A stretch of DNA of 30,043 nucleotides from Chiloscyllium plagiosum (lineage: Eukaryota), in assembly GCF_004010195.1 (NCBI RefSeq), contig NC_057757.1, positions 4,265,111-4,295,153 on the forward strand, in the 5' to 3' direction. Below the pieces are notes generated by a model. The model was given only the letters and a program-made list of their open reading frames with translations, did no database searches and was not told the origin of the DNA. The position numbers and the translations under genes were made by a program. Positions within the stretch are counted from its first letter, which is position 1. Every line of letters begins with the position of its first letter. This document shows, piece after piece, positions 5,523 to 30,043 of the stretch.

Positions 5523-5660
5523 TCATGGACTGTGGTCCCCCTCCTGATCTCGAAAGTGGAAGCTACGAGTACATCACCAAGCGGGACGAGACCCTGCTCC
5601 ATTCAGTCGTCAGATACAAGTGCAAGGAGGTGTATTACACAATGGTGGGCGGAGGAGATG
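5523..5660 (+). CDS. C1S-like: Internal coding exon (138 nt, phase 1-1): first half of the second CCP/sushi domain of a complement C1s-like protein
   Basis: Acceptor tttctgttccAG (5521-5522), donor GTAAGG (5661). Translates [47 protein letters not shown], which matches the C1s CCP2 pattern DCGxP...[24 protein letters not shown]. Confidence 0.9.
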
Positions 5661-5700
5661 GTAAGGCACGTGGATGCGGGGAGGTGATAAGGAGGGCAGG

Positions 5701-6143
5701 CACACACACACACACACACTCAGACAGACGTGCACACACGCACACACTCACACACACAGACACACACACACGCACACTCTCAGACAGACATGCACACACG
5801 CACACACTCACACAGACAGACATACACACACACTCTCTCAGACAGACGTACGCACACACACACAGACATACACACGCATACATACACACACACACACGCA
5901 TTCACACAGACAGACATGCACACACACACAGACATACACTCACAGACACACTGTTAGACAGAGATGCACACACACACTCGCACAGACAGACATATATATA
6001 TACACACACACACACTTTCACACAGAACATACTCTCACACACACAAACTCACACACAGGCAGACATATACAGAAATACACACACAGATGCACACACACGC
6101 ACTCAGACACACACATAGATAGACACACACAGACGCACACACT
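5701..6143. repeat. Complex (CA)n/(CAGA)n microsatellite
   Basis: About 440 bp of interrupted CA repeats; source of the spurious His/Thr and Cys/Val ORFs. Confidence 0.95.
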
Positions 6144-6383
6144 GCCAGGACTCCCCCAGCTACCCAGAGAGATGTGGAAATGGATATCAGAGAAGCCCAC
6201 CCGTGTTCTGTACAGCAAGATCCAACAAACACTTTGTTGCCATGGCTTTTCTGGCCATTGGCTGCCTAAAGTGTGAGTATGTGTGGGAGGGGAGAGAGGT
6301 GGCGGGGAATGTTAGAGCAGGGAGGGTGATGCATTTCGGGTGAGCCGTCACCACTCCCTACCTTTCCTGCAATGGCATGGAGG

Positions 6384-6599: not shown

Positions 6600-6674
6600 G
6601 GCAGTATACCTGCCAGGCGAACGGGAAATGGATGAATAGCGAATCAGGTGACGCCCTCCCATCGTGCAAGCCAG
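6600..6674 (+). CDS. C1S-like: Internal coding exon (75 nt, phase 1-1): second half of CCP2 of the C1s-like protein
   Basis: Long polypyrimidine tract ending cctcAG (6598-6599), donor GTGAGT (6675). Translates GQYTCQANGKWMNSESGDALPSCKP(V) and supplies Cys3, Trp and Cys4 of the CCP. Joins in frame to both neighbouring exons. Confidence 0.92.
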
Positions 6675-10632: not shown

Positions 10633-11399
10633 TGTGCGGGAAACCAGCAGTGCCCCCATCTCTAGCCCAGCGTATCCTCGGAGGGCACCCGGCCGAAGTG
10701 GGCAGCTTCCCCTGGCACGTGTACTTCGAGAGCACCGTGTGTGGCGGGGCCCTTGTGTCTGACCGCTGGGTGCTGACCAGCGCCACGTGTGTGGAAGGCG
10801 CCGGGGGTGTGCTGCGCCTGTTCGCCGGCGGAATCGACCTGAACTCCCCAGAGGGCTGGCGGGGCCCGCTGGAGGCACGGCAGATCGTGCGGCACCCGAG
10901 CTTCGGCGGGCGCCGAGCCGGCTTCGAAGGCGACGTGGCGCTGGTCAGGCTTGGGAGCCGGGTGGAGGCCGGGCGCCACCTCTCGCCCGTCTGCCTGCCC
11001 TCCCGGCGTTCCGGCTCCCGACCCGCGGCGGGCAAGGTGGGCTACATCTCAGGGTTCGGGAGGACGGAACGCTTCGCCCAGAGCGACGTCTTGATGTTCG
11101 CCGCTGTGCCGGTGGTGGAGGAGGTGCGGTGCGGGAACCTCTCCTCCTCCGCCCGCCACGGTGGTGCCCAGCTCACCAACAACATGCTGTGCGCCGGGAG
11201 CCCAGGCATCGATGCCTGCACGGGTGATGGTGGAGGGGCCTACGTCTTTGAGGACCCACTGAAGCCTGACACCTACTATGTCGCCGGGATAGTGTCCTGG
11301 GGGATTCAGTGCGGGGCTTATGGGATCTACACTAACGTCATCAACTACCTCGACTGGATCGAGAAGACGATGGCTGAGGAGGGCGATGGTCAGAACTGA
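10633..11399 (+). CDS. C1S-like: Terminal coding exon: linker, activation site and complete trypsin-like domain of a C1s-like protein with non-catalytic residues (His57>Thr, Ser195>Gly)
   Basis: Acceptor ctcctcgttggcAG (10631-10632). Reads VCGKP...QR|ILGG..FPW, GGALVSDRWVLTSATC, FEGDVALVRL, SPVCLP, GYISGFGRTE, NMLCAG, DACTGDGGGA and AGIVSWGIQCGAYGIYTNVINYLDWIEKTM; stop TGA at 11397-11399. A single-exon protease domain is typical of C1r/C1s/MASP2/MASP3, and the C-terminal half is closest to C1s as I recall it. Confidence 0.92.
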
Positions 11400-13995: not shown

Positions 13996-14361
13996 TTCAA
14001 GGACAGGCCTCAAAGTTACCTTGTTATGAGTGGCAGTGGGATGGGTGCTAAATGCTGGCTGGACCAACAGACCTGAAAGCTCAGAAATACTTCAGGAACT
14101 AAAACACGACTACTGAGCTTAAACACATGCAATTAACCCTCCAGGCAAAATCTTGCTCTTCACAACCACGGACTGTGCTTAAGCAGTTCCATTGCAGTTC
14201 CAAGCTCTTGGCAAGAACATTTTCTCTGGTGATGCTGACCTATTTTGACCCAAACGTCTCACTGCTTGAGCTGGTCACTTCCAGCAGGCCCTGGTGGGAA
14301 AGCTGTGGGCTTTATTGCTAATAGAAACCTTGATTAAAGTGTGGAGCAGCACAGGTCAAAC

Positions 14362-15375
14362 CCCAGGCCTAACCCTAACCCTAACCCTAACAATAACCTT
14401 AACCATAACCCTGGCACTAACCCTAACGCTGACCCTAAACTTAATCCAAAGCCTAGACCTCGCGCTAAACTTAACCTGAAATGTGAACTTATTCTTAACT
14501 ACCCTAACCCTCACCCAGAAACTAACCCTAACCCTAACCCTGTCCCTAACCCTAACCCTAACCCTAACAATAACCTTAACCATGACCATGACACTAACCC
14601 TAACGCTGACCCTAAACTTGACCCAAAGCCTAGACCTCACGCTAAACTTAACCTAAAATGTAAACTTGTTCTTAACTACTCTAACCCTATCCCTGACACT
14701 AACCCTAACCCTAACCCAACCCTAACCCTGACACTAACCCTAACTGTCCTGGAGTATTAACATAATCTTCCCTGATGTTACTATCATCCATATCCTTCTC
14801 CTTTGTAAATACTGATGCAAAGTATTCATTAAGGACCTCACCCACCTCCGCTGGCATATATTCCCTCCTTTTTCCTTGAGTGGACCCACCCTCTTCCTAG
14901 CTGCCAGTTTCCTCCTAATATATGTTTTAAATGTCTTGGGATTCCCTTTAATCTTACTTGCCAAGGACATTTCATGGCCCGTCTCAGCTCTCTTAATTCC
15001 TCATTTGAGTTCTCCTAACCCTATCTTTGATGCTAATCCTAAGTGCAACCCTAACCATAAACCTATCTCTGACACTCACCCTAACCCTAAACCTATCTCT
15101 GACACTAAATCTAACCCTAACCCTACCCCTGATACAGACCCTAGTTGTAAAGCTATCCCTGACACTAACCCTAACCCTATCTTTGACCCTAACCTTAACC
15201 CTATCCCTGATACTAACCCTAACCCTAAACCCTATCTCTGAAACTAACCCGAATCATAATTCTATCCCTAACCCTAACCCTATCCCTGACACTAAACCTA
15301 ACTGCAATTCTATCTCTGACATTAATCCTATCTTAACCCTAAACCTAATATTCATGCTAACCCTAAAGCTAACCC
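14362..15375. repeat. Degenerate interstitial telomeric (CCCTAA)n array, split by a CR1 fragment at ~14746-15012
   Basis: Many perfect and variant CCCTAA hexamers; a 177-bp higher-order duplication (CAATAACCTT at 14391 and 14568). Confidence 0.88.
14746..15012 (-). mobile_element. Internal CR1 ORF2 (tether region) fragment
   Basis: HEMSLASKIKGNPKTFKTYIRRK..VGPLKEKGGNIC, homologous to 965-1306. Confidence 0.8.
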
Positions 15376-15575
15376 AGTATGGTGGTCTCTCGACCCAGCA
15401 TGGTGGTCTCTCGGAGGACTAGCGTGACAGTCTCTCATCCTGTGTGGTAGTCTCTCGACCTGGTGTGGTAGTCTCTAGGCCTGGCATGTCAGTGTCTTGG
15501 CCCAGCATGGCGGTCTCTCGGCCTGGGTGGTGGTCTCTTGGAGGACTGGTGTGGAGATCTCTCAGCCTGGCATGG
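15373..15575. repeat. Degenerate ~22-bp tandem repeat
   Basis: Recurring CCCAGCATGGTGGTCTCTCGG / CCTGGTGTGGTAGTCTCTCG units. Confidence 0.65.
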
Positions 15576-18196: not shown

Positions 18197-18390
18197 CCAA
18201 TGCCTTATCTTTTGGCTGACATTTCATCGCCTGTTGATTGACCCGTAACCAATCTGCCAGAGTGGCTGATTCATGGGCAGGGCAGAGTGTTAGCTGCTGG
18301 AAAGAGAGCCAAACATTGCTTGGTTGGGTGCAGGAGGCTAGTCAGAACTACTATATAAACCTGGAATTTCCAACATATAAATCACTTCAG
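18197..18390 (+). promoter_or_regulatory. Core promoter of the micro-exon gene: CCAAT boxes, TATA box, initiator
   Basis: CCAAT at 18197-18201 and 18249-18253; TATATAAA at 18352-18359; Inr-like TCACTTC with A at 18384 (32 nt from the TATA start); a second TATAAA at 18376-18381. Lies in repeat-free sequence directly upstream of a Kozak ATG. Confidence 0.7.
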
Positions 18391-18416
18391 CTAGAGGCAA
18401 ACAGCTCACTGCAACC

Positions 18417-18471
18417 ATGGAGTACCCGTGTGTGCTCCTCCTGGTCAGCCTGATGGCGGTGGTCATGGCAG
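18417..18471 (+). CDS. Exon 1 coding part: signal peptide of an unrecognised secreted micro-exon protein
   Basis: Kozak context ACCATGG; MEYPCVLLLVSLMAVVMA plus G, then donor GTAGGA at 18472 (phase 1). Hydrophobic core; an A-D-A cleavage motif is completed by the next exon. Confidence 0.82.
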
Positions 18472-18537
18472 GTAGGAATCAACATGCTTTACCTATCATT
18501 TTCTAAACTTAGACAATTCCATATCGGCTCTCGCAGC

Positions 18538-18640
18538 CTCTGGACGGAGCTCCAAGTGTCCAGTGTAGATCATGGACAGAGCTCACAGTCTCTGGACGGA
18601 GCTCCAAGTGTCCAGAGTTGACTGTGGACAGAGCTCACGG
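18538..18640. repeat. Two-copy 52-bp tandem duplication
   Basis: CTCTGGACGGAGCTCCAAGTGTCCAG...TGGACAGAGCTCAC at 18538 and 18590. Confidence 0.8.
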
Positions 18641-18864
18641 GTTGCTCTGAAGCCTTCAGACTCAGAGAGATATGTGTATATATAAATATTAGAGAGAGAG
18701 AGAGAGAGACAGAGAGAAATATTGGAGCTAGCCCCCCTTCAAACACAACAACGCTAAATGGCATTGAGAAACCATCTGCAGCCATAGGAGGGTTAGTAAC
18801 TAGATCAAGCGTTTTGCTGGGGAATAGTGAAGTATTTATGGATGGGCAGGAGGGGAATCGTCAC

Positions 18865-19040
18865 CCACTGAGTGGTTAGTTTCTGATACCAACAGCGTGG
18901 CTTTGATTCCCGCACTAGCTGAGGTTACCCATGAAGGGTTGAATCCAGATTGAATCAACCTTCTCAACCTTTCCCCTCGTGTCAGACGTGGTGACCCTCA
19001 GGTCAAACCCCCACTAATTGTCTCTCTCTAATGAGAGAGC
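18865..19040 (+). mobile_element. Degenerate tRNA-derived SINE fragment
   Basis: A/B-box-like remnants (AGTGGTTAG..TTTGATTCCCGCAC) followed by GCTGAGGTTACC..CCTTCTCAACCT..GTGGTGACCCTCAGG; recognised only loosely. Confidence 0.4.
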
Positions 19041-19390
19041 TTTCCTCTGTTTGAGCAAGATAATAGCGAGTTTACCTTTGCCTCTGAACCAACAAAAATA
19101 ATATCAATTCGCAATAGAAGCATTGAGATAATGGACAGTGCCATCAATGCCATTGAGATATTGCATAATACAATCTTGTACCCATCAGTTGTACCGTCCA
19201 TGGTTCGGTTCATTACTCAGTGTCAACATCTCAAGTTACCTTCTAAATAGTTCAACGGGCAGAAGTAATGCCTTCTGGTATTCAGAAAAAAATTAGCATC
19301 GATTTTAGCATGTGACGTTTTGTATTGAAAATGTGGTACCTCCATTTCATAGCCAGAGACTGTGCTAACACTGCGTTTTTTTCTCCCTAG

Positions 19391-19408
19391 ATGCTTTTCA
19401 CTTAGATG
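19391..19408 (+). CDS. Micro-exon 2 (18 nt, phase 1-1): DAFHLD
   Basis: Branch point GCTAAC (~19364), T-rich tract, ccctAG acceptor and consensus donor GTGAGT at 19409; stop-free in phase 1. Confidence 0.78.
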
Positions 19409-19808
19409 GTGAGTATCTGAAGACAGAGAATTGATGCTGACTCCCCTTACCATGCATTAATTCACAAAATCATTTATTGAGATACAATCTTCCACAGTCC
19501 AGAGTTGCGCAGGTTTGGTAGATTAGCCGTGCTAAATTGTGTGAGTGAGTCCTTAAATCCTGAAAATAAATGCAGAATAAAGGGTTTTGTCGAACTGCAG
19601 CTTAACTTCTGCCTCCCTATATTGCAACCCTCTAAATCTAAAGGACAGAATTCCATTAGCTTTCTCTATTGTAAATGCAGCACATGACTCCCTCAAGCTT
19701 TGAACACAAAACATTAACAGGGCAAGCTCAATGAAATGAAGTGAGGTTTGTGAAATTTCACCCAGATTTGTGCCCGCATTTCGCTGAGTGGACAGGTGAC
19801 AATATTAT

Positions 19809-20105
19809 GGGGAGATTGCTGACAGATTAATAATCCAGAACTCCAGCCAATGTTGTGTGGACGTGAGTTGGCAGGAGCTGAAATTTATAATAAGTAAAAA
19901 TCTGAATTCACACCGAGAGTTGGCCCCGATTGTCCCAAAACCCAGCTGGGTCACTAATGCTCCTTAAGGAAAGGAAATCTGCCATCCTTACCCAACCTGG
20001 CCTACACATGCCTCCAGACCCACATGGTTGATTCTTAAATGCCCTCTGGGCAATTGGGGATGGGCAATAAACATCAGCCTAGCCAGCGATACCCACATCT
20101 CACCA
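19809..20105 (+). mobile_element. SacSINE1/Deu-type SINE
   Basis: Core AAAACCCAGCTGGGTCACTAATG..GGAAATCTGCCATCCTTACC..GGCCTACACATG..CCAGACCCAC. Confidence 0.7.
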
Positions 20106-20199
20106 GCAACCTTCCAGAACCAGAAATGAACATAAACTCCATTCCCTATTTTTAGTTCAAGGTGATAATTACATCGATGTGATGGTGGAGAGAGATCAT

Positions 20200-20856
20200 A
20201 GCATTTCTACACAGTGGAAGCAGGACTTTCAGCCCATTGAGTCTACACCGCCTGTCCGAACTGCTTCCCACCCAGTTCCACGTCCCAACCCTATCCCTGT
20301 AACCCAGTATTTCCCACGGCTAACCCACCTGACCCGCACATCCTGGGACAACTTAGCAGGCCCAACCCACCCTAACCTGCACATCCCTGGGCACTATGGG
20401 ACAATTTAGCATGGCCAATTCATCCTACCCCACACATCCCTGGCCACTATGGGACAATTTATCATGGCAAATCCGCCCTAACCTGCACACCCCTGGGCAC
20501 TATGGGACAATTTAGCACAGCCAATCCACCCTGACCTGCACATCCCTGGGCACTATGGGACAATTTAGCATGGCCAATCCACCCTACCCCGCACATCCCT
20601 GGGCACTATGGGACAATTTAGCATAGCCAATCCATCCTACCCCGCACATCCCTGGGCACTATGGGACATTTTAGCACGGCCAATCCACCCTAACCTGCAC
20701 ATCTTTGGACTGCAGGAGGAAACCGGAGCACCTGGAGGAAAAGCACACTGACATAGGGGAGAATGTGCAAACTCCACACAGAAAGTCGCCTGAGGGTGAA
20801 ATCAAACCCAGGTCCCTGGTGCCATGAGGCAGCAGTGCTAACCACTGAGCCAACAT
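20200..20856 (-). mobile_element. HE1-type SINE with ~7 copies of the 53-bp unit
   Basis: Reverse complement of head (GCTAACCACTGAGCCA), V-domain and tandem units. Confidence 0.85.
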
Positions 20857-20865
20857 GTCACCTCA

Positions 20866-21362
20866 AAGATGAATAAGGCAGCTCAAAGAAAGTTCACGAG
20901 GATAATCCACAGAGTGGAGGGATTGTCTTATAAGCAAAGGCTAAACAGTTTGGGACTCTACTCTCTGGAGTTTAGAAGAATGAGGGGTGATCTCATTAGG
21001 ACATATTGGATTCTTAAGGGGCTTGACGGGGTAAAAGCTGAGAGGACGTTCCCCCTCATGGGAGAGTCTAGGACCAGAGGGCACAGTCTCAGAATAATGG
21101 GGCACCAATTTAGGACTGTGATGAGGAGGAATTTCTTCCCTCAGAGGGTTGTAAGTCTTTGGAACTCCTTGCCACAGAGAGCTGTGGGGGCAGAGTCCCC
21201 GTGTATACTGAAGTCTGAGACAGATTCAAAGGTTACGGGGAAAGGATGGGAAAGTAGATGTGAGAATGTTGAATCAGCCATGATCTTGTTGAATGACAGA
21301 GCAGGCCCGAGGGCCTGAAAGGCCTACTTCTGTTCCTATTCCATATGTTCTTACGATCTTGT
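20866..21362 (+). mobile_element. CR1-clade LINE 3' end
   Basis: QRKFTRII..GLYSLEFRRMRGDLI..TRGHSLRI..RRNFFPQRVVSLWNSLP plus a 3' tail. Confidence 0.88.
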
Positions 21363-21533
21363 AGTTCAAAGAAATGAGAATAAGCAACAATGCTTATCTG
21401 ACATTTGAACAATTAACACCGATTCCTTTTCTGTGTAACACTGAACATTTCAGTTACTGAACCAATTGTGCCTAAGATATGAATTTTTAATTCTTTCTCC
21501 GCAAACAATGATCAAATCTTTTCCACCCAACAG

Positions 21534-21557
21534 GAAAGTACCCTTTCCATGGCTACG
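21534..21557 (+). CDS. Micro-exon 3 (24 nt, phase 1-1): GKYPFHGY
   Basis: ttttccacccaacAG acceptor (21532-21533) and donor GTAAAT at 21558; GK..Y composition resembles the downstream exons. Confidence 0.68.
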
Positions 21558-21819
21558 GTAAATATATTTATTGACAGAATTTATCACATTTTGGCTGGTT
21601 AGAAAATCATAGAATTATAATGCATGCACTCTGAGAGAAATCATCCACTATCCCCAATAACAAATCCCTTCACTGTCCCATCCCATGGATCATTGATAGC
21701 TTCATCCATCTCCCAAACTAGAAAGAGGTGAAAACTTCCATTGGTTGGTTTTACTGATGGAATACATTCATCTGACCGTCTCCCACTATTCTCTGGCACG
21801 AAATTCCATCAACTTCCGA

Positions 21820-22600
21820 CACTGGATGTGAATATGGGAGGAATAGTTAGGAAGTTTGTAGATGATGCCAAAATTGGTGGTCTGGTGGACAGTGAAGATG
21901 ATTACCTAAGAGTATAATGGGACCTTGATCAGGTGGGCCGATGGGCTGAGGGGAGGTAGATGGAATTTAATTTAGATAAATGTGAGGCATTGCACTTTGG
22001 TAAGACAAATCAGGGCAGGATTTATACATTTAATGGAAGGGTCCTGGGGAGTGTTGCTGAACAAAGAGACCTTGGTGTGCAAGTTCATAGTTCCTTGAAG
22101 GTGGAGTCGCAGGTAGACAGAGTAGTGAAGAAAGTATTTGGTTCACTTGCCTTTATTGGTCACTGCACTGAGTATAGTTCTGACGAAGTGTCACTGGACC
22201 CAAAACACCAACTTTAATTTCTCTTCACAGATGCTGCCAGACCTGCTGAGCTTTTCCAGCAACTTCTGTTTTTGTCATTGAGTATAAGAGTTGGGACGTC
22301 ATGTTGCAGCTGTACAGGACATTGGTTACATCGCTTTTGGGATACTGTGTTCATTTCTGGTCTCCCTGCTATAAGAAAGATATTGCTAAACTTAAATGGG
22401 TTTATAAAAGATTTACCAGGATGTTGTCAGAGTTGTAGGGTTTGAGCTATAGGGAGAGGCTGAATAGGCTGGGACTGTATTCCCTGGAGTATTGGAGGCT
22501 GAGGGGTGACCTTATAGAGGTTTATAAAATCATGAGGGGCATGGATAGGATGAATAATCAGGGTCTTTTCCCCAGTGTAGGGAGTATAAAACTAGAGGGT
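21820..22600 (+). mobile_element. Decayed CR1 RT fragment, interrupted at 22177-22275
   Basis: KFVDDAKIGG, MEFNLDKCEALHFG, EQRDLGVQVH and GLYSLEYWRLRGDLIEVYKIMRG. Confidence 0.85.
22177..22275 (+). mobile_element. Short Penelope-associated insert with a decayed hammerhead motif and an 11-bp target-site duplication
   Basis: GTT-CTGACGA-AGTGTC-ACTG-GACCC-AAAAC..AAC; flanked by CACTGAGTATA (22166-22176) and CATTGAGTATA (22276-22286). Confidence 0.65.
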
Positions 22601-22794
22601 GAGATGGTGACTTTCTTAACCCCTGTAGTCAGTTACAGTCCTTTTTAGGGGCAATTGACAGGCACTTAAAGAGCCCCATTTCATCACATGCCTACTCATC
22701 TGCCCTGCCCCCACAGAGGACAACACAAGGGGTTGGATTGTTGACTTCTAAACTGTAGAGATCTGCCCTGGAGGGTTAATGAAGGGTCAACTTC

Positions 22795-23075
22795 CCATTG
22801 TGGGACAATTGGAGACAGGGACATGGGGGAACACCCATTGTCCAAATCCTGGGGCATCTGGAATTAGGGAAGGAGGAATCTCCCATTGTCCAAATCCTGG
22901 GGCAACTGGAATTAGGGAAGAGAGGACCTCCTTTTGTCCGAATCCTGGGGCAACTGGAATTAAGGAAGGGGGAACCTCTCATTGCCTGAATCCTGGGGCA
23001 ACTGGAATTAGGTAAGGGAGGGAATGACCCCCACCCCCCCCACCATTGCCCTAGTCTTAGGGTAATTGGAATTAG
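22795..23075. repeat. 48-bp minisatellite, 4 good plus partial copies
   Basis: AATCCTGGGGCAACTGGAATTAGGGAAG at 22845, 22893, 22941 and 22989 (period 48). Confidence 0.9.
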
Positions 23076-23449
23076 GGAGAAGGGGTGGACTTTGGAATTC
23101 TGTTCCACACACACCCTCTCAGAGGGTTGTGGATTCTCAGGCACTGAGTAAATTCAAGACAAACATTGGCAGATTTCTCATTGCTAATCATATCAAGGGA
23201 CATGGGAGCAGCATAGCGAGGTAGATAATCAGTCACTGTCTAGAATGGCAGAGCAAACACAAAGGGCTGAATGGCCTTAGAGTCGTAGAGTCATTGATTG
23301 GCCCAGGTTAACAGTTCCCAATCAAGGATTTTGCAGTCAATGAGATCCACCCACTTCCAATCACTACAAAGGAAATGGCTGAACGTATTATTTTCCAATG
23401 AATTCTCTACAATGTTCAGTAACAGATCTGTTTCATTTTTCTCCAACAA

Positions 23450-23470
23450 TGGGACCTGTTTATGGTCCAG
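23450..23470 (+). pseudogene. A-type micro-exon copy (VGPVYGP) with mutated acceptor (AA); probable pseudo-exon
   Basis: ctccaacAA|TGGGACCTGTTTATGGTCCAG|GTAATG versus ccaacAG in the paralogous copies. Confidence 0.6.
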
Positions 23471-24111
23471 GTAATGCCTTCAATTCCAATGATCAATCAA
23501 TCTAAAAGTGATAGGAATAAAGAAAAAAAGCTAATCAATGAATGATTATGTTGAGTTTTTAGCCATGGACTAGATTCAAACAAGTCCCTGTTAAATTGTC
23601 CTAAATATAGTTTTGGCATCTGAAGGTACTGACAGGGAATGTCAGGACCGATCAATATACAGGGACAATATGAGCACACTATTCCAACGTTCAAAAGCCA
23701 AGGCATTTTGAACTGAGATGAGGAGGAATTCCTTCACTCAGAGGCAAGGGTGAATCTTTTGGAATTCTCTCCCCCAGAGGCTAGTGAAAGATCAAACATC
23801 AAGTAAATACAGGCCAGAGGTTTGAAGGTTTCTAAATTCTACTCATCTCAAGGGATGTGAGCGTGGTGGGGGAACGTGGCATGCGATAGATGATCAGCCG
23901 CGCTCTAAAATGGCAGAATAGGGTCAAAAGTCTAAACAGACTTCTCCTGTTCCCCATGTATCTATTATTTTAATGTTGCGAACAGAAACACAGCCCCCCA
24001 GATTGGATGATTCTGAATGATCCAAATGTTAAACCGATTGAGCTGAAAATGTAAATGTGCGATTGACTCTCTGCTGACACCGTTCATTAACACAATGTGT
24101 TTATTCCACAG

Positions 24112-24132
24112 GGAAAAGATATGATGATAAAG
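24112..24132 (+). CDS. B-type micro-exon (21 nt, phase 1-1): GKRYDDK
   Basis: tttattccacAG acceptor and donor GTATTG at 24133; paralogous to 28717-28737. Confidence 0.72.
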
Positions 24133-24508
24133 GTATTGTCTTTAAATGTATAAGTCGGTTACTGCAAAGGAATTGGGGCAGAGTCTGTGAGCAATAAACG
24201 GTTTTGATGACAGACAGACACTAACCCCGTTCATGTAACAATACCCTGAACATTAGCATTTATTGTTTTGTTGCAATGTTTTAAAGTGAGTGAAGTTTTC
24301 AATCTAACCATATTTGGTCATGAAACAGATACATTTCATCATGAGAAGATATATAAAGAAAAAGTGAATAGTTTAATATCTATGTGAAAGTTAGAAGAGA
24401 TGAATAAATTGTCATAAAATTGGTAAGAATTCGAAAGTTCCCTGATTATTTCATATGGTAACTCCAGTCAATAATACGTTCCGTTCTGAATGAACCCCAG
24501 TAGTTGAA

Positions 24509-24735
24509 TGGTGAAATACTGCACAGAGGCCAGTATCCCATCATCAAGTCACCCTTTATTTACATGTGGACAGCACATTGGCTGGGGTCAGTCAGCTCGG
24601 AGGCAGTCCCTCAAGTGAGGAGGTTCTGAATCTGCAGTTGAAATTTATCTCCCAGGGCTCCCTGATTGACCCAGGTTAAGAACCACAATCAAGGATTTCA
24701 TAGTCAATGAGATCCACTTGGTCCCAACCACTCCA
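24509..24735 (-). mobile_element. Solo-LTR-like insert (~227 bp, TG...CA); homologous copies at ~23295-23368 (partial) and 25351-26882 (split by nested inserts)
   Basis: Absent at the homologous position of modules 4 and 5; begins TG and ends CA; minus-strand AATAAA (TTTATT at ~24555). Confidence 0.55.
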
Positions 24736-24819
24736 AGGCAAAGTGCTGAAAATATTACTTTCCAATGAATTCTCTACAATGTTCAGTAACAGATCTGTTT
24801 TGTTTTTTTTTCCCAACAG

Positions 24820-24840
24820 TGGGACCTGGTTACGGTCCAG
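24820..24840 (+). CDS. A-type micro-exon (21 nt, phase 1-1): VGPGYGP
   Basis: Poly-T tract, cccaacAG acceptor and donor GTAATG at 24841. Confidence 0.78.
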
Positions 24841-25179
24841 GTAATGTCATTACTTCCATAGATCTGTTGATCTAAAAGTGGTAGGAACAAAGAAGTAGAC
24901 CAATCAATCAATGATTGATTCTTTTAACAACATTTGGGTATTAACCAATTACATTTCATGAAGAGAAGATAAAGAGAAAATATGCAATGTGAATAGATTG
25001 GTATCCATTAAAACGTTAGAAGAGATGAATAAATTGCCATAAAATAAGTAGGAATTGGAAAGTTCCTTGAGCTTTTCATAGGGTAACTCCAATTGACCCT
25101 GGCAGAATAAGGTCAAACAGCTAAAGAGTTTTCTCCTGTTTTCATGTATCTTTTAATTCTGCAAAGTGAAACACCGACA

Positions 25180-25303
25180 CAACCACCCGATGAAGGAGCA
25201 ACACTCCCAAAGCTAGCGCTTCCAATTAAACCTGTTGGACTATAACCTGGTGTTGTGTGATTTTTAACTTTGTCCACCCCAGTCCAACACCGGCATCTCC
25301 AAA
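25180..25303 (+). mobile_element. Penelope-type terminal-repeat fragment with a decayed hammerhead motif
   Basis: CAC-CCGATGA-AGGAG-CAACA-CTCC-CAAA-GCTA-GCG followed by AATTAAACCTGTTGGACTATAACCTGGTGTTGTG; both core boxes carry one substitution. Confidence 0.55.
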
Positions 25304-25789
25304 TACAAGCACAGAGACTGTGTAATTCTGAATTAACCTTATTCGTTGAATGGTGAAATAACTGCATGGACACCAGTATCCCCTCACCAAGTCACCTTTT
25401 ATTTACAGTACGTTGGCTAGGGCCAGCAGGTCAGAGTCAGTCCCTGAAGTGAGGAGATTCTGAATCTTCTTTTTTTTATTTTATTAAACAACTCACAGTT
25501 TACAAAACAATTAACATTAACAGTTGTACACAGAGAAACAGCAATTTTACAAGGGAGAGGAGCAACAAAGACAGGCCCCAAACCCCACCATTCAACCAGT
25601 TTTCAGGCAATGAGGACAAATCTCAAATCCCACATTTCATCAATACAAAACAGTAAGTACATATAAGACTGTCCAATTACATAAAAAACACTGCATAAAA
25701 TACAGACCCCCAGCAAACCAGCAAGCCACCCACTCTAAGGCAGCCCAACTCTCCTGTTTATTTTTATTTTTCTTCTTTATTTTGTTTTC

Positions 25790-26785
25790 TCTATTCTCTT
25801 TTTAAATTTTTTTCTCTTTTTCACTACTGCCTAACTGTGGTTGTGCTTACTTTTTCTCCAGCACCCATGTGTGTGGGCAGGTGTGAGACATAGTGACAGA
25901 CACAAGGTGTGCAAATCTTTAGATTAGACTCCCCAGAGTGTGGAAACAGGCCCTTCGGCCTAACAACTCCACACCGACCCTCTGAAGAGTAACCCACCCA
26001 GACCTGTTTCCCCTCTAACTAATGCACCTAATACTATGGGCAGTTTAACATGGCCAGTTCACCTGAACTACACATCTTTGGACTGTGTGAGGAAACCAGA
26101 ACACCCAGAGGAAACCCATGCAGACACAGGGAGAACGTGCAAACTCCACACAGGCAGTCACCTGAGGCTGGAATCGAACATGGGACCTTGGTGCTGTGAG
26201 GCAGCAGTGCTAACCACTGAGCCACCACAGGCATTAGACTATTCAGTTTCCACTACCAGGAAGAAAAGAAACACCCAAGTGGCCAGTGGCAAGTAGTGGC
26301 CTTCACATCAAAGGGCAATGCTGTGTGATCAAACAGTGAAGGGGAGGGAAGGGATTAAATCAGCTTTCCTGTTTATTGGTTTCTCTCTCAGAGCTCACTG
26401 GATGTGGGCAGCTGGTCCAGAGACAGTCCCTTCCCATCTGACACAAACAAGGGGAGAGTCCTTGTACACACACACACGCGCTGATCCAGCTCCCTTAAGA
26501 GCCAGCTCTCAGAGTGAACAGAACCTCTGACATTCTTGTTTTTTAAATTCTTTTTTTCTTTTTTCTCCCCCCAAGTGCTTATTTTTTCCCCAGCACCCTT
26601 GAGTGTGTGTGCAGGTGTGCGACACAGTGAAAGACACAAAGTGCACGAATCTATATTCAGTTTCCACCACCAGGAAGAAAGGAAACACCCGAGTGGCCAG
26701 TGACAAGCAATGTCCTTCATATCAAAGGGCAATGCTGTGTGATCAAACAGTGAAGGGGAGGGCAGGGATTAAATCAGCTTTCTGG
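25790..26785. repeat. Two direct copies of an unclassified ~250-bp repeat (first: ~25790-25920 + 26241-26368; second: ~26540-26785)
   Basis: CCAGCACCC..GCAGGTGTG.GACA.AGTGA.AGACACAA and ATTCAGTTTCCAC.ACCAGGAAGAAA..GGGATTAAATCAGCTTTC each occur twice. Confidence 0.7.
25921..26232 (-). mobile_element. HE1-type SINE, full length, without tandem expansion
   Basis: Reverse complement of the A box (GCTAACCACTGAGCCAC), B box (GGAATCGAAC), V-domain and tail. Confidence 0.88.
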
Positions 26786-26967
26786 TTTATATCTATTACC
26801 CAGGGCTCCCTGATTGATCCACATTGACAAGCCCAATTAAGGATCTCATAGTCAATGAGATCACTTGGTCCCGATTACTGCACGGGAAAGTCCTGAAAAT
26901 ATAATTTTACAACTAATTCTCCAGAATATTCCGTAACACATCTGTTTCGGTTTTTTTCCTCCAACAG

Positions 26968-26988
26968 TGGGGCCTCTTTATGGACCAG
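26968..26988 (+). CDS. A-type micro-exon (21 nt, phase 1-1): VGPLYGP
   Basis: ttttttcctccaacAG acceptor and donor GTAACA at 26989. Confidence 0.72.
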
Positions 26989-27639
26989 GTAACATAATCA
27001 ATTCCATAACATCTGTCGATCTAAATGTGATAGGTCCGAAAACATAGGCCGATAATAAATAATAATGCCAAGGTCTTAGCTATGAACTAGATTCAAACAA
27101 ATCTCTGTTAAATTGTCCTAAGCCTGTTGCTAGTGTCGGAAGATACTGACGGTAATGTGTCAAGTCTCCATCAGGACTGGTCAATATCCAGGGACAATGT
27201 GAGCACACTATTCCACATTCAAAAGCCAAGTCATCTTGATCCTAGATGAAGAGGAATTTCTTCACTCAGAGGTGGGGAGGGCTGTATCTTTGAAATTCTT
27301 TGCCCAAGAGGCCATTGGAAGATCAGTCATTGAGTATGTTCAAGATGGAAACTTACAATATCTCCTCATATCCAGGGCTATGGGTATGGTGTGGCAACAT
27401 GGCATTGAGATAGATGATCAGCCACACTCTAAAATGGCAGAATAGGATCAAACTGCTAAATAGCCTTGTCCTGTTCGCATGTATCCATCATTCTTTTAAC
27501 TTTGTGAAGAGAAACGCAAATCCCCACACTGTGCAATTCTGAGTGAATCAAATGTTAAACCGATTGAGCTGAAAATGCAAATGTGTGATTGACTCTCTGC
27601 AAACCACTGTTCTTTGCTACAGTGTGTTTTTTTGCACTG

Positions 27640-27660
27640 GGAAAAGTGATGATGGCAAAG
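27640..27660 (+). pseudogene. B-type micro-exon copy (GKSDDGK) with mutated acceptor (TG); probable pseudo-exon
   Basis: tttgcacTG|GGAAAAGTGATGATGGCAAAG|GTGCTG versus ccacAG and GTATTG in the paralogues. Confidence 0.58.
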
Positions 27661-28118
27661 GTGCTGTCTCTCATTTTAGACATCGGATTCTCAAAAGGAA
27701 TGAGGGTAGAGTGTGTGAGGATTAAACAGTTTTCATGACAGAGATACCAACCCCTTTCCTATAAAAATGCCCTGAACATTAGCATGTATGGTTTTGTTGC
27801 AAAGTATTAATTGGGTGAATTTTTATATTCTAACCATATTTGGCCATGGACCAAATACATTTCATTATGAGAAGATATAATGAAAATTGGCAATGTGATG
27901 AGATTGATATTCATTAGAAAGTTAGATGAGATAATAAATTGCAATAAAATCAATAAGAATTAGCAAGTGCATTGAAAATTTCAAATATTAACTGTAATTA
28001 ATAACCTGTTCAACTTTGAACGAACCACAATTGTTCAACAGAAAGTGATGAAAATATAATTTTAACATTAATTCACTACAATGTTCAATAACACATCTGT
28101 TTTGTTTTTCTCCAGCAG

Positions 28119-28139
28119 TGGGATCTCTTTACACTCCAG
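28119..28139 (+). CDS. A-type micro-exon (21 nt, or 24 nt from 28116; phase 1-1): (A)VGSLYTP
   Basis: tttttctcCAGCAG tandem acceptor and donor GTAATG at 28140. Confidence 0.68.
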
Positions 28140-28716
28140 GTAATGTCTTTAGCAGAAATGTTAGTCGTCAGCTACGCTTGAACACATCCCTGTTAAATTT
28201 CCTTAAATATATTGTTGCTTGCAAAAGATACTGATGTTATTGTATCAAATCTCCATCAGGACTAGTCAATAACCAGGGACAATGTGAGCACACCATCCCA
28301 ATGTTCAAAAGCCAAGGCATTTTGAACTGAGATGAAGAGGAATTCCTTCACTCAGAGGGGTGTGAACATTTGGAACTGTCTTCCCCAGAGGCTGGTTGAA
28401 AATCAGTCATTGAGTCAGAAACTGTCAGATTTCCAACATCTCCTCATATCAAGGGTTATGGGCATGGTGAGGGAACATGGCACTGAGATAGATGATCAGC
28501 CACACTCTAAAATGGCAGACGAGGGTCAAGCAGCTAAAGGGCCTTCTCCTGTTCCCCATCGGTCTCTCATTCGTTTAATTCTGCAAAGAGAAACACAGTT
28601 TCACAGACTTGGTAATTCTGATTGAAACGAATGTTAAATACATTGAGGTAAATATGTAAATTTGTGATTGACTCATTGCAAACACTGTTCATTAACACAA
28701 TCTGTTTATTCCACAG

Positions 28717-28737
28717 GGAAAGGTTATGGCCAAAAAG
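28717..28737 (+). CDS. B-type micro-exon (21 nt, phase 1-1): GKGYGQK
   Basis: tttattccacAG acceptor and donor GTATTG at 28738. Confidence 0.74.
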
Positions 28738-29167
28738 GTATTGCCATTTAATTTCAGGAATCAATTTCTCCAAAGGAACTAGGGCAGAGAGATTGAGCAA
28801 CAAACAGTTTTGATGGCAGGCAGACAAAACTCATTTTCAAAAACAAAACCCTGAACACCTTACTGCAGTGTATTATTTGGGTGAATTTTTATATTCTAGC
28901 TATTTTTGACCATGGACTAAGCACAATTAGATATAGAGAAAATTGGCAACATAAATCAACCGATATTCATTAGAAAGTTAGGAGAGGTGAATAAATTGTA
29001 TTAAAATCGATAAGAATTATAAAGTACAGTAAAATTTTGAAATAGTATTTGTAATCGATAATCTGTTTAGCTCTGAATGAACCCCAGCTATTCAGCGGCA
29101 AGTTCTGGAAATATAATTTTGCAATTAATTCTACAATGTTCAGTAACATATTTTTGTTAGTCAGCAG

Positions 29168-29188
29168 GGAGACCTGGTTACGGTCCAG
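29168..29188 (+). CDS. A-type micro-exon (21 nt, or 24 nt from 29165; phase 1-1): (A)GRPGYGP; gene continues beyond the window
   Basis: tttttgttagtCAGCAG acceptor (weaker tract) and donor GTAATG at 29189. Confidence 0.62.
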
Positions 29189-29740
29189 GTAATGTCTTTA
29201 ATCCCAATGATCTATTGACCTAAAAGTGAAAGGAATAAAGAAAAAATCGAATCAATAAATGATAATGTTAAGTTTTTAGCCTTGAACTCGATACAAACAA
29301 ATTCCTGTTAAATTGTCCTGTATATATTGTTGGTGTCTGACGATAGTGATAGTAATGTGTCAAGTCTTTATCAGGTCTGGTCAATATCCAGGGACAATGT
29401 GAGCACACTGTTCCAACATTAAAAAGCATTCAGGCATTTTGAACTGAGATGAGGAGGTTTTTCTTCACTTGGGTTGGGCGGGGGGCGGGGGGGCGCGGGG
29501 GTGTTGAATCTTTGGAATTCTCTCCCCCAGAAGCGGGTGCATGATCAGGAATTGAGTAAATTCAAGACGTAAACTGACAGATTATCAATTTCTCCTCGTA
29601 TTAACTGATATGGGCATGGTGTGGGAACATGGCATTGAGATTGATGATCAGCCGCACACTAAAATGACAGAATGAGCCTTCTCCTGCTCCCATGTATGAA
29701 TTATTTATTTAATTCGGCAAAGAGCAACACCGACACCCTG

Positions 29741-30043
29741 AGTCATAGAGTCGTAGAGATGTACAGCATGGAAACAGACCCTTCAATCCAACCCATCCAT
29801 GCCGACCAGATATCCCAACCCAATCTAGTCCCACCTGCCAGCACCCGGCCCATATCCCTCCAAACCCTTCCTATACATATACCCATCTAAATGCCTCTTA
29901 AATGTTGCAATTGTACCAGCCACCACCACATCATCTGGCAGCTCATTCCATACACGTACCACCCACTGCGTGAAAAAGTTGCCACTTAGGTCTCTTTTAT
30001 ATCTTTCCCCTCTCACCCTAAACCTATGCCCTCTAGTTCTGGA
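29741..30043 (-). mobile_element. CR1-clade LINE 3' end
   Basis: RGERYKRDLSGNFFTQWVVRVWNELP..HLDGYMYRKGLEGYGPGAGRWD; tail AGTCATAGAGTC. Confidence 0.9.

What the first reader, a model, noticed from the sequence alone, without database searches (positions are those of the whole stretch)
18197..29188. Hidden micro-exon gene for a secreted Gly/Pro/Tyr/Lys-rich repeat protein, invisible to ORF calling
Seen: CCAAT/TATA/Inr, a Kozak ATG (18417), a signal-peptide exon, then eight micro-exons with canonical AG/GT (19391-19408, 21534-21557, 24112-24132, 24820-24840, 26968-26988, 28119-28139, 28717-28737, 29168-29188). All are 18, 21 or 24 nt, phase 1-1 and stop-free. Spliced product: MEYPCVLLLVSLMAVVMADA|FHLDGKYPFHGYGKRYDDKVGPGYGPVGPLYGPVGSLYTPGKGYGQKGRPGYGP... 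Only ~220 coding nt are spread over 11 kb. Several differences between A exons are synonymous (GGA/GGG, TAT/TAC, GGT/GGA), which suggests coding constraint. Inference: I cannot assign it to a known family, and such genes are easily missed by annotation. The 3' end lies beyond the window.
Basis: partly seen in the sequence, partly recalled or inferred. Interest (0 to 1): 0.88.

Follow-up and report, generated by a model that had tools for sequence, protein, structure and literature searches.

The report
Shark micro-exon gene for secreted repeat protein
This looks like the front end of a very long shark gene, built from tiny 18-24-base exons, for a secreted glycine/tyrosine/lysine/proline-rich repeat protein; it belongs to a small family of similarly built genes, but no RNA evidence could be obtained here.

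Summary
All nine exons sit at the stated coordinates with AG/GT borders, phase 1-1 and no stops: 223 coding bases in 10.8 kb.

New findings:
1. The gene continues far beyond the window as a ~1.15-kb tandem array. It alternates 21-nt "B" exons (G-K-G-Y-D/G-x-K) and "A" exons (V-G-P-G-Y-G-P) for at least 26 kb more, possibly 46 kb.
2. The promoter, 5'UTR and signal-peptide exon have six full paralogues in the same genome. Each heads its own array of 6-24-nt symmetric exons.
3. Between arrays the splice flanks are conserved, but the exon bodies are at chance-level identity and keep the same length.

Against a working gene:
- No database relative was found.
- A-exon pN/pS is about 0.9.
- This copy has the most divergent signal peptide of the family.
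- 8 of 35 array exons have broken splice sites.
- The 3' end was not found.

It is not elastin: there is no septin/limk1 synteny and no KA/KP motifs. It is laid out like elastin and like flatworm micro-exon genes.

Best reading (0.6): a real secreted, cross-linkable structural protein gene from a shark-lineage micro-exon family that I could not find described.

The parts
18197..18201 (+). CCAAT box 1. It lies inside a ~60-nt upstream block that is conserved in all six paralogous promoters.
18249..18253 (+). CCAAT box 2.
18352..18359 (+). TATA box (TATATAAA). It aligns with T(A/G)TA(T/C)ATAAA in the paralogues. The expected start site is about 18385, at TCACTTC.
18385..18471 (+). Exon 1: a short 5'UTR (start inferred) plus CDS 18417-18471. 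The CDS encodes an 18-residue signal peptide and the first base of a split codon (phase 1). The donor is CAG|GTAGGA.
   Evidence: Five of six paralogues read MKYLCLFLLVSLMAVVMA. This copy differs at 4 residues.
18537..18639 (+). Intron-1 element conserved in all paralogues. It is present here as two tandem copies of about 50 nt.
19391..19408 (+). Exon 2, 18 nt, phase 1-1 (D-AFHLD-G). Unique to this gene. Flanks are ttttttctccctag | gtgagt.
   Evidence: No other copy in the genome.
21534..21557 (+). Exon 3, 24 nt, phase 1-1 (G-KYPFHGY-G).
23450..23470 (+). Dead A-type exon copy (would read VGPVYGP). The acceptor is CAA instead of CAG, so it is presumably skipped.
24112..24132 (+). Exon 4, B-type, 21 nt (G-KRYDDK-V).
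24820..24840 (+). Exon 5, A-type, 21 nt (V-GPGYGP-V).
26968..26988 (+). Exon 6, A-type, 21 nt (V-GPLYGP-V).
27640..27660 (+). Dead B-type exon copy (would read GKSDDGK). The acceptor is CTG and the Tyr codon is lost.
28119..28139 (+). Exon 7, A-type, 21 nt (V-GSLYTP-G).
28717..28737 (+). Exon 8, B-type, 21 nt (G-KGYGQK-G).
29168..29188 (+). Exon 9, A-type, 21 nt (G-RPGYGP-). The array continues beyond the window end.

Best explanation
The stretch 18197-29188 is the promoter and the first nine exons of a gene at least 38 kb long, and perhaps about 57 kb.

Exon 1 encodes only a signal peptide and ends in phase 1. Every later exon is a symmetric (1-1) micro-exon of 15-24 nt. After two unique exons, the gene becomes a tandem array of ~1.15-kb units. 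Each unit carries a Lys/Tyr/Asp heptad exon (G-K-G-Y-D/G-x-K) and a Pro/Gly/Tyr heptad exon (V-G-P-G-Y-G-P).

Inferred, not shown:
- The product is a secreted, disordered repeat protein. A chain of the 29 intact exons would have a mature composition of about G 31, Y 13, K 12, P 12, V 10, D 8 %.
- It serves as an extracellular structural or cement material, cross-linked through its Lys and Tyr residues.
- Because all exons share one phase, the array can grow or shrink by unequal crossing-over, and broken or optional exons can be skipped without losing the reading frame.

The gene is one member of a clustered family of at least seven genes in this shark genome. They share the promoter, 5'UTR and signal exon but carry different micro-exon arrays.
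For: 1. Exon anatomy is intact and in one phase. Candidates exceed shuffles: 9 against a mean of 2.5, and 5 against 0.15 for G/P/Y/K-rich ones.

2. The array continues on the same strand. A pattern search found 35 A/B copies on the contig. Of these, 27 keep both AG and GT: 14 of 18 A and 13 of 17 B.

3. In an alignment of 14 units, identity peaks at the B acceptor (0.94-0.95) and over the A exon (0.93). Most intron windows score 0.6-0.85.

4. Six full paralogues of the promoter plus exon 1 exist. The TATA box, the first CCAAT box (seven of seven copies; the second lies in a stretch deleted in two paralogues), the ATG context and the donor are conserved (the donor shifted by one base in one paralogue). 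Five of six encode the identical signal peptide.

5. The paralogues carry their own arrays of symmetric micro-exons:
- One has 18/24-nt exons (GHGGGYG, GPGDYGGYG...) and 21-nt exons (GYGPGHG).
- One has 6- and 12-nt exons behind a TACTAAC branch site.
- Lengths differ only by multiples of three.

6. Between the B cassette of this gene and the 21-nt cassette of the convergent paralogue, 18 of the 19 bases before the exon match. Downstream positions +1 to +30 are 70 % identical. The 21-nt exon body is only 33 % identical, with its length kept. Neutral DNA would not show that pattern.

7. B exons have pN/pS 0.40.
Against: - No RNA evidence of any kind (see Tried and rejected).
- A exons have pN/pS 0.91. 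Intron flanks of the units are nearly as conserved as the exons, as expected for young or homogenised duplicates. My copy search also capped exon divergence.
- This copy has the most divergent signal peptide of the family, with 4 residue changes including Lys2 to Glu. It also lacks about 19 nt of the shared 5'UTR.
- 8 of the 35 array exons found by the pattern search have a broken splice dinucleotide. A further B-type remnant was found only by BLAST (27640-27660, acceptor CTG). One otherwise intact B copy, 33 kb past the window end, has an in-frame TAA.
- No terminal exon or poly(A) site was identified. Assembly gaps or withheld runs of N interrupt the array.
- No database protein shares the exon-1 reading frame.
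- Function and tissue are inferred from composition only.
Confidence: 0.6

Rival explanations
1. The family is real, but this member is a decaying or non-functional copy. The promoter and exons look intact in the window, yet the gene no longer makes a useful protein.
For: - Its signal peptide is the most divergent of seven, with 4 non-synonymous and 1 synonymous change, and its 5'UTR has a ~19-nt deletion.
- The window holds two dead exon copies.
- 8 of 35 array copies have broken splice sites, and one has an in-frame stop.
- A-exon pN/pS is 0.91.
Against: - The ATG, the Kozak context, the hydrophobic core, the V-M-A cleavage motif and the donor are all kept.
- 27 of 35 copies keep both splice sites. 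Symmetric exons tolerate skipping of dead copies.
- B exons show pN/pS 0.40.
- Conservation peaks sit on the splice cassettes.
Confidence: 0.22
2. It is not a gene at all. On this view the region is a tandemly duplicated non-coding unit whose AG...GT-bounded, stop-free 21-mers arose once by chance and were copied, next to an unrelated promoter-like sequence.
For: - The repeated exons are duplicates, so their number is not independent evidence.
- Introns are almost as conserved as exons.
- There is no RNA hit and no protein-database hit.
Against: - The exon-1 phase matches all downstream exons.
- Six paralogous promoter/signal exons each head a different micro-exon array.
- Exon lengths vary only in threes.
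- Splice flanks are conserved between arrays while exon bodies are at chance identity with length kept.
- Near-consensus branch sites and pyrimidine tracts precede each exon.
Confidence: 0.08
3. It is the shark tropoelastin gene (ELN) or a direct duplicate of it.
For: The layout is shared with tropoelastin: an exon 1 that is signal-only, all introns in phase 1:1, replicated pairs of Lys-containing and Pro/Gly exons, and a tiny coding fraction. This rests on passages read in PMC12554196 and PMC12733013, the latter describing a ray eln with 70 exons of 36 and 48 nt.
Against: - Fish eln lies in a block with septin4/5 and limk1, and non-teleosts have a single eln (PMC12733013). None of the 62 septin matches in this genome lies on the window's 10-Mb contig.
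- There are no KAAK or KP cross-link motifs. The Lys residues are spaced K-x4-K among Tyr, Gly and Asp.
- Asp is 8 % and Tyr 13 %, against the highly hydrophobic shark elastins.
- It belongs to a multi-copy family.
Confidence: 0.02

Closest known systems
Tropoelastin genes (ELN), including chondrichthyan eln with replicated small exon pairs
   Same: - Exon 1 holds only the signal peptide and ends in phase 1.
- Every intron is in phase 1:1, so exons behave as cassettes.
- The repeat region was made by replicating pairs of a Lys-bearing exon and a Pro/Gly-rich exon.
- Coding sequence is a few per cent of the gene.

Sources: PMC12554196 passages and PMC12733013 passages.
   Different: - The exons are 21 nt rather than 36/48 nt or larger.
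- The composition is rich in Tyr, Asp and Lys and is not very hydrophobic.
- There are no KA/KP motifs.
- It is not in the septin/limk1 block.
- It is a member of a multi-gene family with a shared 5' exon.
- The C-terminus is unknown.
Micro-exon genes (MEGs) of Schistosoma
   Same: - Secreted proteins are encoded by 10-20 or more exons of 6-81 nt, mostly multiples of three, separated by introns of 0.1-5 kb.
- The signal peptide is the only part conserved across the family.
- They are hard for automatic annotation.

Source: PMC10526429 passages.

The shark family likewise has 6-24-nt symmetric exons, introns of 0.4-2.6 kb, a shared signal exon, and exon bodies far more diverged than their splice flanks.
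   Different: - MEGs belong to flatworms, and no sequence relationship was tested or is expected.
- MEG proteins are small and not long tandem heptad repeats.
- The shark genes are tandem arrays of duplicated exon-intron units.
- Alternative splicing, the hallmark use of MEGs, is untested here.
Actinodins and the tyrosine-rich non-collagen component of elastoidin (fin actinotrichia and ceratotrichia)
   Same: Both are fish-lineage, multi-copy, secreted repeat proteins. [quoted passage not shown] A Tyr-rich secreted repeat protein in a shark is a conceivable candidate for such material.
   Different: No actinodin sequence was compared here. The paper's passages describe the coding part in terms of ordinary exons (loss of exon 2; 8 of 10 C-terminal repeats removed), with no mention of micro-exon arrays. 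This is a lead only.
Earlier scan finding e1-7530846 (another genome): a secreted Gly/Tyr repeat protein built from symmetric duplicated mini- and micro-exons
   Same: Both have a signal peptide followed by duplicated symmetric small exons encoding a Gly/Tyr-rich secreted protein.
   Different: It is an unrelated organism and a seven-exon compact gene, and it was reported as transcribed. Here the gene is a vertebrate one tens of kilobases long, with no RNA evidence.

Membership tests
Tropoelastin (ELN) | All exon borders are in phase 1:1, and exon 1 is signal peptide only (PMC12554196). | tested here: met
   All nine exons are phase 1-1. Exon 1 is 18 codons plus 1 base. The same holds for 20 further intact array exons.
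Tropoelastin (ELN) | Alternating hydrophobic domains and KA- or KP-type Lys cross-linking domains. | tested here: not met
   The alternation of Lys exons and Pro/Gly exons is present. However, the Lys exons read G-K-G-Y-D/G-x-K, with no Ala or Pro between the lysines. The mature composition is D 8 %, Y 13 %, A 1 %.
Tropoelastin (ELN) | Synteny with septin4/5 and limk1, and a single copy in non-teleosts (PMC12733013). | tested here: not met
   None of the 62 septin (PF00735) matches in the genome lies on contig C48. Six paralogues of the 5' module exist. limk1 itself was not searched.
Tropoelastin (ELN) | A C-terminal exon with a Cys pair and a basic tail, and a conserved proximal 3'UTR. | not testable with these tools
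   The 3' end of the gene was not found.
Schistosome-type micro-exon genes (as an architecture, not a homology family) | Many internal exons of 6-81 nt, mostly multiples of three, between a signal-peptide exon and the 3' exon, with introns of 0.1-5 kb (PMC10526429). | tested here: met
   The window has exons of 18, 24 and 6 x 21 nt and introns of 430-2554 nt. The paralogues have exons of 6, 12, 18, 21 and 24 nt.
Schistosome-type micro-exon genes (as an architecture, not a homology family) | The signal peptide is the only segment conserved among family members. | tested here: met
   Exon 1 is nearly invariant in six paralogues, while the downstream exon bodies are unrelated.
Schistosome-type micro-exon genes (as an architecture, not a homology family) | Protein variants are produced by alternative splicing of the micro-exons, and expression is proven. 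| not testable with these tools
   No RNA data could be laid.
SCPP genes (secretory calcium-binding phosphoproteins) | All coding introns are in phase 0.
   All introns here are in phase 1. There is no Ser-x-Glu-rich acidic sequence.

The most novel reading that the evidence does not exclude
Sharks of this lineage may possess a vertebrate counterpart of the flatworm micro-exon genes. This would be a clustered family of at least seven co-regulated genes that share one promoter and signal exon. Each would build a different secreted Gly/Tyr/Lys/His/Pro-rich polymer from tandem arrays of 6-24-nt symmetric exons. The splice cassettes would be conserved while the exon bodies diversify. The products would be the so far unidentified tyrosine-rich, quinone- or Lys-cross-linked components of a shark biomaterial, such as the egg case or fin-ray elastoidin. 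Standard annotation would largely miss them.
Probability: 0.3. Interest if true: 0.8.

Novelty: new variant of a known kind. Interest (0 to 1): 0.62.

Why it matters
If transcribed as predicted, this is a vertebrate gene family whose coding sequence consists almost entirely of exons of 6-24 bases spread over tens of kilobases. ORF-based and most homology-based annotation cannot see such an architecture. I found it described only for flatworm MEGs and, in a milder form, for elastin.

It would bear on four questions:
- How micro-exons are recognised by the splicing machinery. Each exon here has a near-consensus branch site, a long pyrimidine tract and conserved flanks.
- How repeat proteins grow by exon-intron unit duplication.
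- How a shared signal exon can head diversifying bodies.
- What sharks use to make tyrosine-rich cross-linked materials whose protein precursors remain poorly defined.

It is also a caution for annotating large fish genomes.

Tried and rejected
RNA evidence.
- The look-up of sequencing runs listed no RNA holder. It listed two single-cell RNA runs and one possible RNA run of the same species.
- My single read-laying run asked for window:10044-30043 so as to include the neighbour gene as a control.
- Expression is therefore untested.

Database search.
- The spliced protein is a joined sequence and was not sent to any tool.
- A 20-aa exon-1 translation was too short.
- I then searched with the contiguous 41-aa frame around exon 1.
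- Longer proteins: 4 word-sharing candidates, none at E <= 10.
- Similar-length proteins: none.
- Full HMMER search: 3 hits, all unrelated tandem-repeat proteins that add up weak matches.
- A match limited to the 11 residues shared with the paralogue signal peptides would probably not reach E <= 10. These blanks therefore exclude only near-identical annotated signal peptides.
- As a control, the neighbour's protease exon finds shark proteins, so shark proteomes are in the library.

Literature. Eight full-text searches found no description of such a family:
- egg case / micro-exon
- six peptide motifs, 0 papers
- oviducal gland
- micro-exon and shark
- Chiloscyllium egg case
- lamprin / tropoelastin
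- elastoidin / actinodin
- micro-exon genes and vertebrate

Only passages of the papers cited were read. No supplements were opened.

3' end. The following gave no convincing terminal exon:
- scans for terminal exons and poly(A) signals
- long open frames
- similarity to paralogue downstream regions, which returned mostly transposon hits

Other dead ends.
- The first paralogue alignment was uninformative because four loci were in the opposite orientation. It was redone.
- Earlier-findings look-ups by place and by sequence gave nothing for this locus.
- Collagen was rejected by eye: there is no Gly-X-Y period.

Full report
**What is in the window.**

The window is a 30-kb piece of a 10-Mb contig in a 3.56-Gb genome. 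The neighbour gene's protease exon is 96 % identical in protein to a Chiloscyllium punctatum entry. The organism is therefore a shark close to the bamboo sharks.

The nine exons of the finding are exactly where stated:
- The ATG at 18417 has A at -3 and G at +4.
- It opens an 18-codon signal peptide with a hydrophobic core and a V-M-A end.
- The donor follows 18471, in phase 1.
- Eight micro-exons follow, of 18, 24 and six times 21 nt.
- Each sits behind a pyrimidine tract and an AG, and before a GT.
- All are in phase 1-1 and all are open.
- The last base of each exon is G, so the split codon can never be a stop.
- Coding sequence is 223 of 10,772 bases, and the introns measure 430-2554 nt.

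A scan with fixed thresholds finds 9 such segments on this strand, 5 of them rich in G/P/Y/K. In 200 dinucleotide shuffles the mean is 2.5 (maximum 7), and 0.15 for the rich class (maximum 2). The opposite strand and the upstream 18 kb hold none of the rich class. The repeated exons are also duplicates of each other, so this control is supportive but not decisive.

**The gene is much longer than the window.**

Repeat analysis and the own-genome search showed that the 3' half of the finding is a tandem array with a period of about 1.1 kb that runs on past the window end. I fetched 90 kb downstream.

A pattern search found 35 copies on the contig, in mostly alternating order with several adjacent same-type copies:
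- 18 are A type (V-G-P-G-Y-G-P, with a V-G-P-L-Y-x-P subtype).
- 17 are B type (G-K-G-Y-D/G-x-K).
- They extend to about 26 kb beyond the window.
- More diverged B-like exons lie about 34-46 kb beyond it: an 18-nt G-K-G-Y-D-K, a 15-nt G-Y-G-P-K, G-K-G-Y-R-G-T and G-S-Y-Y-F-D-K.

Integrity of the array:
- 27 of the 35 keep both splice dinucleotides.
- The others have acceptors AA or AC, or donors AT, AA, GA or GC.
- One intact B copy has an in-frame TAA.
- Because every exon is symmetric, dead copies can be skipped without a frame shift.

A chain of the 29 intact exons would give 214 residues. The mature part would be about G 31, Y 13, K 12, P 12, V 10, D 8 %. This chain is hypothetical. The array is also interrupted by three runs of N. 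I could not find the terminal exon.

**Is there constraint on the exons?**

The evidence is mixed:
- In an alignment of 14 units, the highest identity windows sit on the B acceptor region (0.94-0.95) and on the A exon (0.93). One further block about 100 nt upstream of the B exon also scores high. Most intron windows score 0.6-0.85.
- Divergence from consensus is 0.11-0.13 per site in A exons, against 0.25 in their distal flanks.
- A exons have pN/pS 0.91, and there is no third-position excess.
- B exons have pN/pS 0.40.
- My copy search limited how far exons could diverge.

Within this one array, constraint falls mainly on the splice signals.

**The family is the strongest evidence.**

A search of the genome with the promoter and exon 1 found six further full copies and a promoter fragment. 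Four places lie on the same contig, spread over 1.7 Mb, and three on unplaced contigs.

Aligned in the right orientation, the shared parts are:
- the upstream block with its first CCAAT box (the second CCAAT box lies in a stretch that is deleted in two paralogues)
- the TATA box
- the 5'UTR and the ATG context
- the 55-nt coding part of exon 1 and the donor (kept in all, but shifted by one base in one paralogue, whose last exon base is T instead of G)
- about 100 nt of intron 1

Exon 1 is the best-conserved part. Five of six paralogues encode the identical 18-residue signal peptide.

Each paralogue is followed by its own array of symmetric micro-exons:
- The convergent neighbour starts about 96 kb downstream of this gene's exon 1, on the other strand. 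It has 18- and 24-nt exons (G-H-G-G-G-Y-G, G-P-G-D-Y-G-G-Y-G, G-K-K-G-R-G-G-Y-G) with near-identical flanks. These are followed by six 21-nt exons of the G-Y-G-P-G-H-G type, one per 2-kb unit.
- Another paralogue has 12-nt and 6-nt exons (V-P-K-P-G, G-H-K-D-G, G-S-Y-Y-G, G-Y-G). They lie behind a TACTAAC branch site and a long pyrimidine tract. The flanks are mostly conserved (invariant in roughly three quarters of the aligned columns) while the 12-nt bodies are unrelated.

I compared the consensus B cassette of the window's gene with the 21-nt cassette of the convergent paralogue:
- 18 of the 19 bases before the exon match.
- Downstream positions +1 to +30 are 70 % identical.
- The exon body is 33 % identical, which is chance level.
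- The length stays at 21.

Lengths that change only in threes, conserved splice cassettes around diverged bodies, and a shared signal exon are hard to explain without splicing and translation. This is inference from sequence, not observation of RNA.

**What counts against this particular copy.**

The window's gene is the outlier of the family. It has four residue changes in the signal peptide, including loss of the Lys at position 2. It also has a 19-nt gap in the 5'UTR. Together with the broken array exons, this leaves a real chance, which I put at about 0.2, that this member is decaying even if the family is functional.

**Comparison with known systems.**

The layout is that of tropoelastin: a signal-only exon 1, all introns in phase 1:1, replicated pairs of a Lys exon and a Pro/Gly exon, and a tiny coding fraction. 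This rests on passages of PMC12554196 and PMC12733013. The latter describes a ray eln of 70 exons with repeated 36- and 48-nt exons.

It is nevertheless not elastin:
- Fish eln is single-copy outside teleosts and lies with septin4/5 and limk1.
- None of the 62 septin matches in this genome is on the window's contig.
- The Lys exons have no KA or KP motif.
- The protein would be rich in Tyr and Asp.

The family-level picture matches the schistosome micro-exon genes. Those have 6-81-nt exons in multiples of three, introns of 0.1-5 kb, a signal peptide as the only conserved segment, and are trouble for annotation (PMC10526429 passages). That is an architectural likeness only.

Elastoidin of fish fin fibres is said to contain a tyrosine-rich non-collagen component, assigned in zebrafish to actinodins (PMC13120675 passages). 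I could not compare sequences.

From general knowledge, not from any call: Gly/Tyr/Lys/Asp/His-rich secreted repeats are typical of quinone-tanned or dityrosine-linked materials, such as trematode eggshell precursors, mussel byssus proteins and resilin. Bamboo sharks lay tanned egg cases. That is the basis of my guess at function, and it is only a guess.

**Database and literature blanks.**

The spliced protein could not be submitted anywhere because joined sequences may not be typed. Searches with the 41-residue frame around exon 1 found nothing real, although shark proteomes are in the library. These searches would miss proteins that share only the 11-residue core with the paralogue signal peptides. 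Eight full-text searches found no description of such a shark or vertebrate family. An earlier scan note (e1-7530846) describes an analogous symmetric micro-exon Gly/Tyr gene in an unrelated organism.

**Verdict.**

The gene model is well supported by comparative anatomy within the genome, but it is untested at the RNA level, and coding constraint within the array is weak.
- I rate it a new variant of known kinds: an elastin-like modular matrix gene with a MEG-like micro-exon architecture.
- Interest is 0.62.
- Confidence that it is a real, spliced gene for a secreted repeat protein is 0.6.

Noticed in passing
window 5523-5555, 6600-6647 and 10635-11396 (+): The upstream neighbour has sushi exons plus a single-exon trypsin-like domain, and sources name its relatives 'complement C1s-like'. 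The catalytic His is replaced (L-T-S-A-T-C) and the catalytic Ser is Gly (G-D-G-G-G). The same two losses occur in all five other chondrichthyan proteins aligned (Chiloscyllium, Cetorhinus, Pristiophorus, Callorhinchus, Leucoraja). This points to a conserved, catalytically dead, haptoglobin-like clade.
   Followed up: partly
G000:C48 about 4,349,000-4,379,900 (-), which is 84-115 kb on my window-plus-downstream scale; loci L014-L016 and L027: A convergent paralogue has the same promoter and signal exon. It carries an exon 2 (D-P-E-P-F-G), eight 18/24-nt exons (G-H-G-G-G-Y-G and similar) and six 21-nt exons (G-Y-G-P-G-H-G type, one per 2-kb tandem unit). The two genes' 3' ends must lie within about 9 kb of each other.
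   Followed up: partly
G000:C48 about 2,877,000-2,884,800 (-); loci L030 and L031: This paralogue has 6-nt and 12-nt exons behind a perfect TACTAAC branch site. The flanks are mostly conserved (invariant in roughly three quarters of the aligned columns) while the exon bodies are unrelated. If spliced, these are among the smallest vertebrate exons.
   Followed up: partly
window 20291-20767 and 22780-23085: Two tandem repeats lie inside introns 2 and 3 of the gene. One is a 53-nt unit in about 9 copies, and the other a 48-nt unit in about 6 copies.
   Followed up: no
window 20757-20855 and 26129-26227: Two copies of a tRNA-like SINE, 85 % alike, lie in introns. The last 300 bases of the window (about 29740-30043) match more than 30 places across the genome at 95-96 % identity, so they belong to a young, very abundant repeat.
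   Followed up: no
window 165-3530 (-): Reverse-transcriptase and endonuclease open frames of a LINE-type retroelement, broken into several frames.
   Followed up: no
window 5600-6300 and 14270-15420: Long microsatellite or low-complexity tracts that read as T-H-T-H and N-P-N-P / L-T-L-T in open frames.
   Followed up: no
G000:C48:3045403-3045534 (locus L022): A 130-nt fragment is 92 % identical to the window's upstream promoter block. That is closer than any full paralogue, yet it has no exon 1 behind it.
   Followed up: no
directly after the window end (G000:C48:4295154-4298024): A run of 2871 N starts at the first base after the window. It is either an assembly gap or a withheld stretch, and it hides about two repeat units of the array.
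   Followed up: no
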